Below are positions 42,001 to 48,000 of a stretch of 64,000 bases of DNA, in pieces. Source of the DNA: Mobula birostris. Lineage: Eukaryota. Made by a program: the position numbers. Each line of letters starts with the position of its first letter. Position 1 is the stretch's first letter. The stretch lies in contig NC_092400.1 of assembly GCF_030028105.1 (NCBI RefSeq), positions 17,918,001 through 17,982,000 of the forward strand. Direction: 5' to 3'.

Positions 42001-45000
42001 CAAGGGGTAAATTCATCAAGAGGATGACACGGTCAATCAAGTTTAGCAAAGTCATAAACATCTTAAGGGGATATAGAAAATCACCAGAACTCCAGTACTT
42101 CTCAGTTACAAAGTCATCACCCTGCAACGGGACATCACAGCACATGAACAGTGCCCACAAGTACCAGATTCAGCGAACACACAGTTCTGCATTTGAATTC
42201 CACAATTTCGAACTCCAGCTGTATAGGTAGGGTCGATGCAAGCACGCTTTTTCCACTGAGGTTGGGTGGGACGGCAACTAGACGTCACGAGTTAAGGGCG
42301 AATGCTGAAAAGTTTAAGGGGAACGTGAGTGGGAACTTCTTCACTCAGAGGGTCGTGAGAGTGTGGAAGGAGCGGCCATCACAAATATTGCATGCAAGCT
42401 CGATTTTAATGTTTAAGAGAAGTTTCGATGGTAGGTACATGGAAGGCTATGGTCCTGTGCAGGTTAATGGGAGTAGACAGTTTAAATGGTTCAGCACAGA
42501 CTAGATAGGCCAAACGGCCCGTTTCTCTGCTGTACTTTTCTATGACTGTATAATTTTACCTGAAAATAAAACATATACAAAGCAGTTGTATTTCTGACTA
42601 GTCCAAGTCGATTCTTCTAAAAATTACTGGTGGGTTGTGAGCAGAATCGACAATCTCATTGGAGACGTGTTGCGGGGCTGAATTGTCAATTGTTAAAATG
42701 CCACGGTAAACACACTCACAATATTTCAGAGACAAGTAAACAAAATGATCACAAATGAAGTTCTGCATACTCAGAGCATTAATGTTGCATTCCATATTTA
42801 TTAACATTTCTCTCAGAAATCACAAGATTTAATGCAATGAAATATATCTGGCATTACTATCAGAATTTTATAGGTTATAGCATACAACTGTATGATACTT
42901 CAACTTGATATTAAGTACATGAACCATTTGTATGGTCCTATCAAAACAGTAAAACTTTGTTTGGGATTCAGAATTCACTCCTAATCCTGTTGAAATGCAA
43001 TTTCTCTATCTGAATAAAAACTACTCAACTGGAATCCTACACTACCCCAGCTCTCGTCGTAGACTGGGAAGTTGGTCCAGCAGGTGCCCTCAATGAGATG
43101 AACAGAATATTATTCAAATCAATCTCATTGATTATACAGAATTGCTGTTCCATGCACTATACTTGCAGAGTACAGAGAGACAACAGTATTCCCAGAGTAG
43201 ATTTTCTGTTACCACAAGGATCTGCTGAATGAAGGTTAAAAGTGATTTCTGCTCTCCTTCATGCAGCCTGGACATGGTTTATCATGGCTGTAGGAGGGAA
43301 GGCAGCAATAGTTCCACGCAACACTCTCTATCATAGTGTTTAAGTTCATGTGGGTAAGTGTGAAATAATCGGAGAAAGACACCAGAAATATTTTGATTAG
43401 ATCCTGGGGAATAAAAGAACTTACTAACTCAGTATCCCACATGCCCTTGATTCTTCATAAGGAATACTCAGTGTTCATTCCTTTCCACACTGCCCCCTTG
43501 TGTTGGAGTTCTTTGCTGCAAACAATGATCCACAAAAGTCACTTCCAAGGAACTCAAACAACAGAAAGTCTGCTAGAAATCCAACCAACATACATAAAAT
43601 GCTGGAGGAACTCAGCAGGCCAGGCAGCATCTATAGAAAAAAGTATAGTCAATGTTTCTGGCCGAGACCCTTCAGCAGGACTTTCAAGATCAAATAAATT
43701 TCTGTTTTTTGACATTCCTAGATGGGTCACAACAGGTAAGCAAAATTATTTTAATATTAGTAAATCAGAGCGGATTTTATAATAACCTGGTAACTTCATT
43801 GACACCCATAACACATAGGAGCAGAATTTGTCCATTCAGCCCATCGACTCTGTTCCACCATTCCATCATAGTAGCTTTACTATCGCTCTGAACCCATTCT
43901 CATGCCTTCTGGCCAGGAGTCAGCAATCAAGAACCTATCAACCTCTGCTTTAAATATACCTAATGACTTGTCCTCCACAACCACCTCTGGCAGAGAATTC
44001 CACAGACTGACCATCCTCTTGTAAAAGAAATTCCTCCATATCTCCGTTCTAAATACTGACCATCTTTCTTTAATGATGACCACCCTCCTTCAGTACTGAT
44101 AAAATCTATCTTCATTCCAGATTTCAATTTTATTTACAGAAAATAAATTCCCCAGTTTTGAACCGGCGCTTCACTTCCTCTCTCCAGTTCACCAGAAAAG
44201 GCTTTTCTTTGGCACCATTCCAGCAACCGCTTACAACACTTCGCTACTGACTGAAAGTCTGCAAGTAGGATTGAACTTGGTTGAATAATATTACTGCAGA
44301 TTCCTCTGGACAGTCAGTCAACCTGAGAATAATGGGTAGAAGCTATCTACAAACGAGACACATAGGCTGAAGTCATCTGAGGAAGTAATTGCTTACATGG
44401 AAAGGAAAATCTTAAAATATCCATAAACCCTTTCCTTCAAGGCAGGGGTTCCCAAATGGGATTCATGGAACCCCTGCTGTTTTCTTAACAAAACTATAAA
44501 AGTTTATTTACATCACATATACACAAGGTACAGACAGTCAATATTTACAAGACAGTAAGTATACTCAAATTAAAATGTGGTTACTACCGTCTATAAGATA
44601 ATCAATACCTCGTGGGGGGGGGGGGGCGACCGCTCACGGAAGTCCCCACAATGTGCCCGTCGCAACCGTGTGCTCCCTGTCCAGGTACAGTCGGGCACGA
44701 AAGTATCCTCAGAAAAGGGGCAGGCAGTCGGCCCGGGCAGCGCCCGCTCTCCACTTTCCTCCGCCATGCCTGTGACAAGACCCAGGCCCGAGCCCGCCAA
44801 CAGATCCTCCTCACGCCCCGACCCCCGGCGTACGCGTGGTACACTGACCGCTCCCGCACACAGAGTGGACAGGTGGACGGGGTGTCAGTTAACCTGCTCA
44901 AGAACCCGTTGTACGGGACTACCGCTGCAACACCTTCCACCCCAGATCCGCAATGTACAGGGGAAGCACCCCTGCGTAAAGGGACTTCCACTGGGGACCT

Positions 45001-48000
45001 CCTCCGCTGCCAGGTGGTAACACAAGGCAGGTCCGGTCGGCAGACGAAGGCAAGGAAGTTAAAGGTGTGCAGGAGCAGCCCGTACAAGAAACGCTTCGGA
45101 ACGTCACGGAACTGCACGGTGGGCATCCCTGCGAGACGCCTCACGTTGAGCGGGACCCTTTCCCGCGTGGTCTCCTGAGGCCAGGGTCCGACCACCACAG
45201 CGGGTAGTGGTGCAGCCGGATCCCCTCCACTTCCCCGCGCCCTCCCTACACCCGCCTTAATAGGATCGGGACCAGAGCCCCCAGCAGCCAGGAGCACCCA
45301 GCCTGGATGAGGCCAGACCCCGTCCCCTCCACAGTTCCCGGTAAAAGCGGCGCAGTTCCCTCAGAGCAGCACGTCATCCGGGATCCGCGTGCCCTCCTGC
45401 CAAAATAAAATAGGGAACCCACGATTTAAAGACACCGTTTCTTAAAAAACAACCTCCGAAATAAACTTACTTTATGTAGATAAGATGCAGTATCTTCTCT
45501 ACACATAAAGGGAAGTGTATTTCAGAACTTGTTACTTAAACTCGACTTATCTCGCACCAACATTTTAAGAATTGATCAATTTCTGCGTCAGGTCGCATTT
45601 ATCAGCTTTACTTTGATCACATAACAATACAGAGCATCTAGTTCACGCGGACCGGGATCGATTGGATGGCTGTCGATGAGCTCGTTTGCTGATCAACAGT
45701 CTGCCCCTCCCTGGATGTTCCTTGTTCAGTGGATGATCTGCGACATCTTAAATTAAGACGAGGTAGAGCTTTCTCCAAAGCATGTTGAAACTGCGAAGTT
45801 GAAAAATAGTAAATAATTGGATCGACCACACTGTTCAGATACGTTATAAACAACGTATTGTAAAAGATATTCGCTGCTGTGCGATACGACTTGCAGTCGA
45901 ATGGATTTCTTAGTTTAGTCACCAAAACCGCAACCACAGCAACGCTGGTGGGCAAGAAGCAAATGGCAAAAACCGCAGCCACGGCTATCACAAGTTTCAC
46001 AGTTCGCTTATATTTAGCCCGCATTCCAGCTTCCATCTGCCGTAACCTCCAGGTGATGGAGGACGTAGAGAACAGGATAACTGAAACTGGCAAAAGAAAC
46101 TTAAAGAATATAAAAATAAAGTCAGTCCAAATTGCTGGGGGACTTAGAGCCTTGTTTATGCTGAAAGGCTCACAGTTTGTCACGTTGTGTTGTTCGAAGA
46201 GATGTTTGTCTATCAGCAAGTGCAAGCAAATAGCCACCGCTACAATCCACAGACCGCCTGTTATCATCACCGCACACCCTGTAGAGATCTTGTTTACCTT
46301 GTGGAGTGAATGGACCACCTTAAAGTAACGATCGATCGCTATAACCATGAGGAAAAAGACGCTGCCAATCCGGTTCAGGAAAATCGTGAAAACGTTCAGT
46401 CGACACAGTCCATCACCAAAAATCCAGTCCTTCCCTCGGAGAAAATAAACAGCTCGAAAAGGTAGACAGCATAGTAACAGAGTGTCCGCAACCATGAGAT
46501 TCAGTGAATACACAATACTTGGTTTCCGCGACTTCACATGAACACAAAAGATCCACAAAGCAATTGTATTTCCAGCAAGGCCGAAGATTAATGTGATGAT
46601 GATTATGGGCGGATTGTAGGACCAGTTAACATCTTCAGCAGGAGCACATTGCGGGGTCGAGTTCGCCATTGTGCGAAAAAGTCAAGTTGTGTCCGGGGAG
46701 AGCAAACTCAATCAGAGTCGAACAACCTGAAAAGTTGATCTTCGAATGAGTTTGTTCCCCTGTGGGTGGAGTATATGGGCGGAGTGAAATAGTCAGAGCA
46801 CCAATAAATTGTGCGATCGAATCATCAATCCAGGAAAACTAGAAGCATCAGCATTTAAATTAAGCAGCAAACAATGAAATATATTTAGCTTTCATTGCCA
46901 GGCATAAAATTGTACAATACTTAGTTTTGCTGTTGAGTGCATGAATAATTTTATATTAAAAATTAATGAGGGGGCATAATTTTAAGCTGATAGGAGGGAA
47001 GTGTAGGGGGGACGTCAGAGGCAGGGTTCTTTACGCAGTAAGGTTGGGTTCGAGAAGCACACTGCCAAGTTTGGTGGTAGAAGAAGATACATTAGGGGCA
47101 TTTCAGAACCGTTAGGTGGGCCCATGGATGATAGGAAAATGGAGGACTATGTAGGGTTTGACTAATATCAAAGTAGATTAAAATTCGACACACATCGTAC
47201 TGTGATATAATATGTTCTTTTAAAAAGGACATATTATGTAATAGTAATCAACCCCAAAAATTATTTCACTGTTACTAAAGTCATTCTTCTAAAATCTCCT
47301 GCCGACAACTGACATCAAAATGCATTGGGATATGAATTAAAAGCAGAAAACGCAGAAAACTCCCAGCATGTCAACTATGGAAAGAAAATCAGAGTTTATG
47401 CTTCAGTATATGGGTGTTTCTGTCATGGTCCGGTCCATGAAGTCCGTATTCTGGTTCATGGTCCGGTCCATAGTACCTTATTCCAGCGTTTCTGGTTTTC
47501 CCCAGTCTCTGTTGTAGGCAAATGATTCTCGTTTTTGGGCTGAGTAACGCACCCCTTGGACTAGAAGAGACGGGAGCACGGAACACGGAGCCGGGACCCC
47601 TCCTTGGAAAACAGGGATTCCTGGCTGGACTGTCTGTTCCCTTCTTTGTCTTTCCCCCCTCCGCCTGACTCTCTGCCTGGATACCTCGCCTGACTCTCTG
47701 CCTGCTTACCTAGCCTGGATACCCCACCTGTATCGCTGAAGTTTTACCGCCGGAGCAAGACCGGAGCCTTGTTCGGTCAAGATAAGAAACTGTCATTCGT
47801 TGTGTGTAATTGTCTCTCTGTGTCCACACCTTTGCTAGGTAGGTCCGGCCGTTTGCCGCCAACTAGTGTTCGGAACTGCCTCTGTGTCCTCGCCTTCGCG
47901 AGATGGGTCCATCCGTTTGCCGCCATCTTGTGTTGGGATCCGTCTCTTCATGTTCAACGTTCTGTATATGAGTATTACACCCATCTCACCAATTACCCTA

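What the first reader, a model, noticed from the sequence alone, without database searches (positions are those of the whole stretch)
44853..46669. Paralogs B and C differ more in coding sequence than in the adjacent non-coding flank
Manual count: about 47 nt differences in the 1032-bp CDS, giving 35 amino-acid changes and only about 9 clearly synonymous changes. The ~785 bp downstream of the stop has about 7 differences. Changes include N-terminal, ECL1, TM3 (F97S), TM5 (K190Q) and ECL3 sites, with no stops or indels. Inference: dN/dS near or above 1 (diversifying or relaxed selection), plus a probable gene-conversion tract over the 3' flank, since more distant flanks are more diverged.
Basis: partly seen in the sequence, partly recalled or inferred. 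Interest (0 to 1): 0.65.

Follow-up and report, generated by a model that had tools for sequence, protein, structure and literature searches.

The report
Fast-evolving manta ray receptor duplicates
Two neighbouring copies of a metabolite-sensing receptor gene in a manta ray genome have changed their proteins as fast as neutral DNA changes, while the stretch just downstream was later copied from one to the other; this is the usual behaviour of young tandem gene families.

Summary
B (45638-46669, -) and C (62679-63710, -) differ at 47 of 1032 bases, giving 35 amino-acid changes and 9 synonymous-only codons, with no stop or indel. The 787 bp after the stop differ at 7 sites (0.89% against 4.55%, Fisher p=2e-6).

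The window is not human. Its proteins share a 39,046,265-bp contig with NCBI 'HCAR2-like [Mobula birostris]' proteins.

Pairwise omega is 1.1-1.5 by three counting methods, 1.4 by my own ML and 2.0 by Biopython ML. It is not above 1 (p=0.35), and omega of 0.5 or less is rejected. It is significantly above the family background of 0.30 (p=5e-5).

Replacements are split 16 in B and 19 in C. They are spread evenly over codon positions and receptor topology and are not enriched at the ligand pocket. This looks like relaxed constraint, although both reading frames are still whole.

Silent-site divergence (4.3%) and the 5' flank (4.5%) match the coding sequence, so the 3' flank is the outlier. A control with an older array unit shows the flank is not slow-evolving (p=2.6e-4). 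It is probably a gene-conversion tract, one of two.

This is ordinary birth-and-death evolution of a tandem receptor family.

The parts
45638..46669 (-). Paralog B: whole single-exon ORF of 343 aa, an HCAR-like class A GPCR (P0001)
   Evidence: Pfam 7tm_1 E=1.3e-46; best solved relatives are human HCAR3/2/1 at E=8e-68 to 3e-64; AlphaFold model with 7 helices plus helix 8, pLDDT 72.4
62679..63710 (-). Paralog C: whole single-exon ORF of 343 aa (P0002), 35 of 343 residues different from B
31749..32768 (-). Paralog A: whole ORF of 339 aa (P0003), about 63% protein identity to B and C; used as outgroup
44851..45637 (-). 3' flank of B, low-divergence tract 1 (counterpart in C: 61892-62678): 7 differences in 787 bases and no indel
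   Evidence: The first ~250 bases after the stop are AT-rich. The rest is GC-rich (whole flank GC 0.55, CpG o/e 0.78) and reads as a LINE ORF2-like tail with a CPLC motif (the LINE label is my reading of the translation, not a database match)
45541..45657 (.). Interval that holds the switch from 0.9% to 4.6% divergence; it contains the stop codon (45638-45640)
   Evidence: max chi-square 22.5, 10 of 5000 permutations reach it; positions
46670..46965 (-). 5' flank of B (counterpart in C: 63711-64000, cut by the window end): 13 differences in 289 bases and 2 indel events
44688..44850 (.). Non-homologous block: 163 bp in B against 595 unrelated bp in C (61297-61891). It bounds tract 1 on the distal side
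43866..44365 (.). Low-divergence tract 2 (C about 60472-60971): 6 differences in 500 bases, flanked by 22/320 (44366-44686) and by 5/73 (43793-43865)
   Evidence: 6/500 against 22/320, p=3e-5; 6 B-C against 87 B-D differences in 447 columns
43176..43679 (.). Distal flank at high divergence (C 59885-60398): 31 differences in 504 bases
55652..56102 (-). Fragment D: relic of the N-terminal ~77 codons plus upstream flank of an older array unit, about 80% identical to B and C; used as outgroup
48101..50865 (.). Degenerate downstream flank of the older unit D (67-74% identical to the B and C flanks); 50683-50865 is the outgroup for the 3' flank

Best explanation
B and C are young tandem duplicates within an expanded array of hydroxycarboxylic-acid-receptor-like (HCAR-like) class A GPCR genes in a manta ray (Mobula birostris by inference). 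Neutral divergence between the two units is about 4.5-7%. After the duplication, constraint on both proteins dropped from omega about 0.3 to about 1, and each copy fixed roughly half of the 35 replacements. Most of these look like unfiltered mutations, which points to relaxed constraint through redundancy. Both reading frames and all core receptor motifs are still whole, so the genes are probably still in use, and a minority of adaptive changes is possible. Later, non-allelic gene conversion homogenised two patches of the unit. One is the 787 bp directly 3' of the stop codon, ending distally at a structural difference between the units. The other is a 500-bp patch further downstream. Shown: the counts, omega and its shift, the mosaic, and the outgroup control. 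Inferred: that relaxation rather than adaptation drives omega; that conversion made the low tracts, and in which direction; and the organism.
For: Identity. Pfam 7tm_1 matches. HCAR3/2/1 are the best solved relatives at E=8e-68 to 3e-64, and the next family, GPR4, is at 8e-35. The window proteins share a 39,046,265-bp contig with named M. birostris HCAR2-like proteins; at least 9 clusters lie on that contig.

Rate shift. In a 3-taxon codon ML, omega is 0.30 on the A branch and 1.36 on B+C. One ratio against two ratios gives 2dlnL=16.5, p=5e-5. The B+C value does not differ from omega=1 (p=0.39). Pairwise omega is 1.14-2.03, and omega of 0.5 or less is rejected (2dlnL 9.2).

Neutral-like pattern.
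- Codon positions carry 19/14/14 differences.
- 16 replacements are derived in B and 19 in C.
- Replacements hit columns invariant in 17 relatives at 9/136 against 24/199 at variable columns (p=0.13). They include P121S, R131G, S16W and A137T in B, and D81V, F186L, R217Q, V230L and A232V in C.
- Mean BLOSUM62 of the replacements is -0.11 against -0.41+-0.27 for random missense mutations (p=0.15).
- Transmembrane, extracellular and intracellular parts carry 20/209, 6/57 and 9/77 changes (p=0.87). Pocket positions carry 3/25 against 32/318 elsewhere (p=0.73).

Still in use.
- The chance that both ORFs stay whole after 47 random substitutions is 0.17.
- There are 0 indels in the coding sequence against 7 per 84 substitutions in the flanks (Poisson 0.02; Fisher p=0.095 per substitution, p=0.017 per base).
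- All 34 columns invariant in 42 vertebrate relatives are kept in B, including N34, D62, R100 (3.36), R114-Y115, W141, P240, Y277 (7.43) and P284. None of these 34 positions is among the 35 B-C differences, so C keeps them too.

Conversion. pS (4.3%) and the 5' flank (4.5%) match the coding sequence and exceed the 3' flank. Against the older unit D, the 3' flank is more diverged (45/179) than the N-terminal coding part plus 5' flank (61/418), yet B-C differences are 2 against 26 (p=2.6e-4). Tract 2 shows 6 against 87 (p=2.7e-5). No Rfam element lies in 43000-47300, and A's 3' flank does not align to B's.
Against: The point estimate of omega is above 1 in every method, so some positive selection cannot be excluded. 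The tract boundary lies within 117 bp of the stop codon, which is what selection against conversion inside the coding sequence would give. The outgroup control covers only 179 columns of the AT-rich part of the 3' flank; the GC-rich 556 bp have no outgroup. The indel argument rests on 7 events. The low tracts could mark the true young age of the duplication, with the other segments imported from array members outside the window. At the protein level B, C, another M. birostris paralog (P0017) and a M. hypostoma protein (P0015) are nearly equidistant at 31-36 differences, and the (B,C) clade has only 47/21 support. A few derived states are shared with non-sister paralogs: C with P0012 at I83S and G215E, and B with P0005/P0006 at S97F. 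No nucleotide sequence of other array members or other species could be reached.
Confidence: 0.55

Rival explanations
1. Diversifying selection. B and C are being driven apart to recognise different ligands. Gene conversion sweeps the whole unit repeatedly but is removed by selection wherever it would erase coding differences, which puts the tract boundary at the stop codon.
For: Omega point estimates are 1.1-2.0. Both ORFs are whole despite a neutral-like load. The switch point interval 45541-45657 contains the stop codon. Three differences sit at positions equivalent to human HCAR2 pocket or activation residues: 180 = Q187(5.37), 186 = M192/F193(5.42/5.43), and 190 = E196(5.46), the apo-state ionic-lock partner of R111(3.36). 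This mapping rests on the alignment and passages of PMC10682194. K/Q at 190 recurs in 4 other paralogs.
Against: Omega is not above 1 (p=0.35 and 0.39). Replacements are not enriched at pocket positions (3/25 against 32/318, p=0.73) or on the extracellular side. Their exchange spectrum matches random missense mutation. The 5' flank is as diverged as the coding sequence (13/289), which selection on the protein does not explain. Changes hit G-protein-side and conserved positions such as P121S in intracellular loop 2 and R131G.
Confidence: 0.2
2. The duplication is young (about 1%, as in the two low tracts). The more diverged segments, namely the coding sequence plus 5' flank and two distal segments, were imported into B or C from older array members or pseudogenes outside the window, by conversion or unequal crossing-over. 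On this reading omega near 1 reflects the donors' history.
For: The unit is a mosaic with at least four switches. B, C and P0017 are equidistant as proteins. There are scattered derived states shared with non-sister paralogs. The array holds relic units and fragments.
Against: This needs three imported segments covering about two thirds of the unit, against two homogenised patches. No annotated M. birostris protein is closer to B or C than they are to each other, and the C cluster has 1 member. 9 replacements are private to B or C at columns where all other 18 rows agree, and derived states are balanced at 16 against 19.
Confidence: 0.15
3. The 3' flank is conserved by function (3' UTR or another element) or has a low mutation rate, and no recombination is involved.
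For: The first ~250 bases after the stop are plausibly 3' UTR.
Against: Against the older unit D, this flank is the most diverged of the segments compared (45/179). A's 3' flank is not alignable. There is no Rfam match. Most of the tract is a CpG-rich retroelement-like tail, which should mutate fast. A second low tract lies in anonymous DNA.
Confidence: 0.03
4. Assembly or polishing artefact: reads of one copy were used to correct the other over the flank.
For: None from the sequence. This is a general risk in tandem repeats.
Against: 7 real differences remain in the tract, the boundaries are sharp, and one coincides with a structural difference. It cannot be tested here.
Confidence: 0.05

Closest known systems
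Human HCAR1/HCAR2/HCAR3 (GPR81/GPR109A/GPR109B), Gi-coupled sensors of lactate, 3-hydroxybutyrate/niacin and 3-hydroxyoctanoate
   Same: They are the best solved relatives by a wide margin. The fold is the same 7TM plus helix 8. The carboxylate anchor R3.36 (R100) and Y7.43 (Y277) are invariant, and F180(ECL2)=F169 is kept (passages of PMC10682194). Both are single-exon genes in a tandem cluster. HCAR2/HCAR3 are likewise a young tandem pair whose differences sit near the pocket (passage of PMC10682194).
   Different: B scores almost equally against HCAR3, HCAR2 and HCAR1 (232.5, 230.6 and 220.6 bits), so 'HCAR2-like' is an automatic label, not shown orthology. S179(45.52) is P168 here, and E196(5.46) is K (B) or Q (C). 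The ray array is much larger, with at least 9 clusters on one contig. The B/C differences are not concentrated at the pocket. The primate study (PMC13237431, passages seen) states that its ape tree is not consistent with gene conversion.
Birth-and-death evolution with interlocus gene conversion in tandem receptor families (olfactory, taste, TAAR, vomeronasal and immune receptors); recalled general knowledge, not from a call
   Same: Young tandem copies with omega near 1, relic fragments and pseudogene pieces between the genes, and mosaic divergence along the repeat unit.
   Different: Here the family is a metabolite-sensing GPCR not known as a chemosensory repertoire, and the host is an elasmobranch.

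Membership tests
HCAR family (class A GPCR) | Rhodopsin-type seven-helix receptor | tested here: met
   Pfam 7tm_1 at E=1e-46 to 2e-49 over residues 33-287 for A, B and C. The AlphaFold model of B has helices 20-43, 50-77, 86-119, 130-153, 177-211, 214-254 and 259-288, plus helix 8 at 292-304.
HCAR family (class A GPCR) | HCARs are the nearest characterised relatives, well ahead of other GPCR families | tested here: met
   PDB search: HCAR3 8.1e-68, HCAR2 2.9e-67, HCAR1 3.3e-64; the next family, GPR4, is at 8.3e-35.
HCAR family (class A GPCR) | Arginine 3.36 as carboxylate anchor, and Tyr 7.43 | tested here: met
   R100 aligns with R111, and Y277 with Y284 (alignment). Both are invariant in 42 relatives. 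Their roles are taken from passages of PMC10682194.
HCAR family (class A GPCR) | Ser 45.52 in ECL2, the third key agonist contact of human HCAR2 | tested here: not met
   Position 168 is Pro in B and C (motif C166-E-P-F). This feature is specific to HCAR2 pharmacology and may not define the whole family.
HCAR family (class A GPCR) | One-to-one orthology with mammalian HCAR2 | tested here: inconclusive
   Scores against HCAR3, HCAR2 and HCAR1 are nearly equal. Elasmobranch proteins carry mixed automatic labels 'HCAR1/2/3-like'. No tree with tetrapod HCAR1-3 was built.
HCAR family (class A GPCR) | Activation by hydroxycarboxylic acids with Gi coupling | not testable with these tools
   Needs a cell assay.
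Interlocus gene-conversion tract | A segment with significantly lower paralog divergence than its neighbours, with defined boundaries | tested here: met
   7/787 against 47/1032 and 13/289; max chi-square reached by 10 of 5000 permutations; second tract 6/500 against 22/320.
Interlocus gene-conversion tract | Low divergence not due to low mutation rate or constraint (outgroup control) | tested here: met
   HKA-like tables with older unit D: 2 against 45 compared with 26 against 59, the rounded mean of the B-D (61) and C-D (57) counts (p=2.6e-4); 6 against 87 compared with the same 26 against 59 (p=2.7e-5). This covers 179 of the 787 flank columns; the GC-rich part has no outgroup.
Interlocus gene-conversion tract | Phylogenetic incongruence among several paralogs or orthologs, and donor and recipient identified | not testable with these tools
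   No eukaryotic nucleotide collection is on hand. GENECONV has no power with only two sequences.
Positively selected gene pair | Omega significantly above 1 | tested here: not met
   LRT against omega=1: p=0.35 (pairwise) and p=0.39 (B+C branches).
Positively selected gene pair | Replacements concentrated on ligand-contact or exposed surfaces | tested here: not met
   3/25 pocket positions against 32/318 others, p=0.73; topology classes p=0.87.
Unconstrained pseudogene | Disabling lesions (stop, frameshift, lost start, lost core motif) | tested here: not met
   Both ORFs are whole. All 34 columns invariant in 42 relatives are kept in B, and none of them is among the B-C differences, so C keeps them too. 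The joint chance under strict neutrality is roughly 0.17 x 0.02; this figure is rough.

The most novel reading that the evidence does not exclude
Rays, and mantas in particular, have turned the HCAR metabolite-receptor family into a large, fast-diversifying tandem repertoire of at least 9 clusters on one M. birostris chromosome, with many copies also in Hypanus and Hemitrygon. New copies are pushed apart by selection on ligand range, for example sensing of dietary, microbial or environmental carboxylic acids. Selection actively keeps gene conversion out of the coding sequence, which would explain the conversion boundary at the stop codon.
Probability: 0.12. Interest if true: 0.6.

Novelty: new member of a known kind. 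Interest (0 to 1): 0.3.

Why it matters
It documents, with controls, a young receptor duplicate pair whose coding sequence is more diverged than the adjacent flank, and shows that the flank rather than the gene is the outlier. For elasmobranch biology it flags an expansion of HCAR-like receptors in rays. Four full-text searches found no paper describing it. If any of the copies have new ligand ranges, the family could be a metabolite or chemosensory repertoire in a lineage with few olfactory receptors (that last point is recalled, not from a call). As a case of molecular evolution it is ordinary.

Tried and rejected
- CpG hypermutability as the cause of the contrast: rejected. The flank has as many CpGs as the coding sequence (45 against 47), and the non-CpG contrast holds at p=1.3e-5.
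- Tandem repeats in 43000-47300: none found.
- Rfam elements in 43000-47300: none at E<=0.1.
- Residual heterogeneity within the coding sequence plus 5' flank: not significant. 379 of 2000 permutations reach the observed value, and the longest difference-free run in the coding sequence is 123 bp (P=0.10).
- Separate omegas for B and C: not supported (p=0.18). The split estimates of 11.2 and 0.66 are unstable.
- A test of whether B and C form a clade: the best tree already has them together at 47/21 support, so nothing is shown either way. The earlier tree left them in a four-way polytomy.
- GENECONV proper: not run, because with two sequences every informative site is a difference and the test has no power.
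- codeml site models with orthologs: not possible. Only protein sequences of other species could be reached.
- Mapping onto 3-D coordinates: not possible, because the tools return no coordinates. I used alignment to human numbering, residues named in passages of PMC10682194 and the helices of the model. That paper's supplementary figures, which list further pocket residues, could not be seen.
- Literature on an elasmobranch HCAR expansion: searches (0 papers) gave nothing relevant.

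
Full report
**What the window is**

The window has no N. It holds three whole single-exon ORFs on the minus strand that encode class A GPCRs: A (31749-32768, 339 aa), B (45638-46669, 343 aa) and C (62679-63710, 343 aa). Their best solved relatives are human HCAR3, HCAR2 and HCAR1 (E=8e-68 to 3e-64). The next family, GPR4, follows at 8e-35.

I therefore take the window for giant manta ray, not human. The identity to the human receptors in the alignment is far below what a human sequence would give. Nothing here fell under the rule for human contigs. 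The genes are unspliced ORFs, so no joined model was needed.

The rest of the window is mostly retroelement debris and relics of older array units.

**The observation**

- B and C differ at 47 of 1032 nt in 44 codons. That gives 35 amino-acid differences and 9 synonymous-only codons, with no stop and no indel. F97S and K190Q are present.
- The block of homology runs from B 44851 to 46965, matching C 61892 to the window end at 64000.
- The 787 bases 3' of the stop carry 7 substitutions and no indel: 0.89% against 4.55% in the coding sequence (Fisher p=2.0e-6). Without CpG sites the counts are 6 against 40 (p=1.3e-5).
- A maximum chi-square scan places the switch after 45657. 10 of 5000 permutations reach the observed value.
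- No difference lies between 45541 and 45657, an interval that contains the stop codon at 45638-45640.

**Which part is the outlier**

The coding sequence is not unusually diverged.

- Nei-Gojobori counts are Sd=10.5 over S=242.3 (pS 4.3%) and Nd=36.5 over N=786.7 (pN 4.6%).
- The 5' flank is 13/289 (4.5%).
- If silent sites evolved at the 3' flank's rate, 2.16 synonymous differences would be expected. The chance of seeing 10 or more is P=8.6e-5.
- Four-fold sites alone give 5/143 against 7/787 (p=0.026).

The unit is a mosaic further downstream as well: 22/320 at 44366-44686, 6/500 at 43866-44365, 5/73 at 43793-43865 and 31/504 at 43176-43679. Two patches of about 1% therefore lie in a background of 4.5-7%.

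Between 44688-44850 (B) and 61297-61891 (C) the units are not homologous at all, with 163 bp in B against 595 bp in C. This structural difference bounds the first low patch.

**Is the flank simply slow?**

No. An older, degenerate array unit (D) lies between B and C. Its pieces are 48101-50865 and 55652-56102, and it serves as an outgroup.

| Segment | Ungapped columns | B-D differences | B-C differences |
|---|---|---|---|
| 3' flank (45407-45588) | 179 | 45 | 2 |
| N-terminal coding part plus 5' flank | 418 | 61 | 26 |
| Second low patch (43866-44365) | 447 | 87 | 6 |

The contrast between the first two rows gives p=2.6e-4. The second low patch against the N-terminal segment gives p=2.7e-5.

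Other points agree:

- A's 3' flank does not align with B's.
- No Rfam family matches 43000-47300.
- Most of the tract is a GC-rich stretch (whole flank GC 0.55, CpG o/e 0.78) that reads like the tail of a LINE ORF2. The LINE label is my reading of the translation, not a database match. Nothing suggests constraint there.

One limit: the outgroup covers only the AT-rich 179 columns.

**Selection on the proteins**

Pairwise omega estimates:

| Method | Omega |
|---|---|
| NG86 | 1.14 |
| LWL85 | 1.27 |
| YN00 | 1.50 |
| Biopython ML | 2.03 |
| Own GY94 F3x4 fit | 1.40 |

- The test against omega=1 gives p=0.35.
- Omega=0.5 is rejected (2dlnL=9.2), and the likelihood interval is about 0.7-3.0.
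- With A as outgroup (336 gap-free codons), omega is 0.30 on the long branch to A and 1.36 on the B and C branches. Two ratios beat one ratio by 2dlnL=16.5 (p=5e-5). Fixing the B+C ratio at 1 costs nothing (p=0.39). Separate ratios for B and C are not supported (p=0.18).
- Pairwise A-B and A-C omega is 0.27-0.34.

Constraint clearly dropped after the B/C duplication. Omega above 1 is not shown.

**The pattern of changes looks unfiltered**

- Differences fall 19/14/14 on the three codon positions.
- Polarised with 17 relatives, 16 replacements are derived in B and 19 in C. With A's nucleotides, 16 and 19 of the 47 nucleotide differences are polarised and 12 are not.
- 9 of the 33 replacements scored lie in columns invariant across those 17 relatives. 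The rate is 9/136 against 24/199 in variable columns (p=0.13).
- The private changes at columns where all other 18 rows agree are S16W, P121S, R131G and A137T in B, and D81V, F186L, R217Q, V230L and A232V in C.
- In a wider alignment of 42 vertebrate relatives, P121, I83 and V230 are conserved at 90% or more.
- The exchange spectrum has a mean BLOSUM62 of -0.11. It cannot be told from random missense mutation of the same gene (-0.41+-0.27, p=0.15).
- By topology the changes are even: 20/209 transmembrane, 6/57 extracellular and 9/77 intracellular (p=0.87). The helix limits there were generic recalled values, and the AlphaFold model's helices agree closely with them.
- 25 human HCAR2 positions are named as pocket, selectivity or activation residues in the passages of PMC10682194 that I saw. 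Three coincide with B/C differences: 180 = Q187(5.37), 186 = F193(5.43) or M192(5.42), and 190 = E196(5.46). That is 3/25 against 32/318 elsewhere (p=0.73). The paper's supplementary lists could not be seen.

**Yet the genes are not wrecks**

- All 34 columns invariant in the 42 relatives are kept in B, including N1.50, D2.50, R3.36, the R-Y of the D/E-R-Y motif, W4.50, P6.50, Y7.43 and P7.50. None of these positions differs between B and C, so C keeps them too.
- In simulation, both ORFs stay whole after 47 random substitutions in 17% of trials.
- The flanks show 7 indel events per 84 substitutions, while the coding sequence shows 0 per 47 (Poisson 0.02; Fisher p=0.095 per substitution, p=0.017 per base against the high-divergence flanks).
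- The product, about 0.003, is rough. It still argues that frame-preserving selection has acted for most of the time since duplication.

**Family context**

At least 9 clusters of this family map to the same M. birostris contig, and stingrays (Hypanus, Hemitrygon) have many copies too.

In protein trees the Mobula copies form one clade with short inner branches and long tips. B, C, M. birostris P0017 and M. hypostoma P0015 are nearly equidistant, at 31-36 differences. (B,C) is recovered only weakly, with 47/21 support.

Other Mobula copies also carry private changes at otherwise invariant columns. P0006 has 8, including Y288C in the D/NPxxY motif. Stingray copies have 0-5.

A few derived states are shared between non-sister copies: C with P0012 at I83S and G215E, and B with P0005/P0006 at S97F. 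These could be micro-conversion or recurrent change.

**Conclusion**

The best reading is ordinary birth-and-death evolution of a tandem receptor array. A duplicate pair evolves at omega near 1, most likely through relaxed constraint from redundancy, with both copies still kept open. Later interlocus gene conversion homogenised two non-coding patches, one of which abuts the stop codon.

Three rivals cannot be excluded with the sequences available here:

- Diversifying selection that also keeps conversion out of the coding sequence.
- A young duplication with segments imported from other array members.
- An assembly artefact.

What would separate them is listed under next steps.

**Literature**

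Four full-text searches found no description of an elasmobranch HCAR expansion. For primates, PMC13237431 (passages seen) states that its ape HCAR2/HCAR3 tree is not consistent with gene conversion.

Noticed in passing
window 55652-55881, 58353-58490, 48765-48905: Relic N-terminal fragments of HCAR-like genes. The fragment at 55652-55881 is 53-74% identical to B over its first ~77 codons. The other two are 46-47% identical over ~46 codons. They lie between B and C and show that the array has lost units.
   Followed up: partly
window 1878-3011 (-), 18298-19779 (+), 20369-21304 (+), 36070-37431 (+): Retroelement ORFs: two reverse transcriptases (RVT_1, E=9e-36 and 1.6e-23), an integrase (rve plus Integrase_H2C2), and an ORF with a weak GIY-YIG match below the family cut-off (E=0.0027).
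   Followed up: partly
window 18794-19098: Self-matches at offsets of 102, 153 and 204 bases (92-94% identical) point to a 51-bp tandem repeat inside the reverse-transcriptase ORF region. It is seen in the translation as a repeated 17-residue unit.
   Followed up: no
window 21805-22710 vs 39620-38717; 16706-17170 vs 40119-39662: Inverted repeats about 72% identical flank the region that holds paralog A. They are probably copies of the same retroelement in opposite orientation.
   Followed up: no
window 44640-45400 (-) and 61892-62441 (-): The GC-rich part of the 3' flank reads as the C-terminal tail of a LINE-like ORF2 (CPLC motif). In C the frame is cut at the homology break by 595 bp of other sequence that carries an internal direct repeat of 28 bases, 93% identical, 68 bases apart.
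   Followed up: partly
protein P0006 (M. birostris paralog outside the window): It has 8 private residues at columns where all other 18 rows agree, including Y288C in the D/NPxxY motif plus C8R and C68F. It may be a decaying member of the array.
   Followed up: no
B/C residue 190 (equivalent to human HCAR2 E196, position 5.46): K and Q alternate repeatedly among ray paralogs: Q occurs in C, P0005, P0007, P0014 and P0018. Human HCAR2 has Glu here, forming an ionic lock with R3.36 in the apo state (passage of PMC10682194). Rays therefore cannot form this lock in the same way.
   Followed up: partly
B/C residues 83, 215, 97, 91: Derived states are shared with non-sister paralogs: C with P0012 at I83S and G215E, B with P0005/P0006 at S97F, and C with P0006 at L91V. 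This is either short conversion tracts from other array members or recurrent substitution.
   Followed up: no
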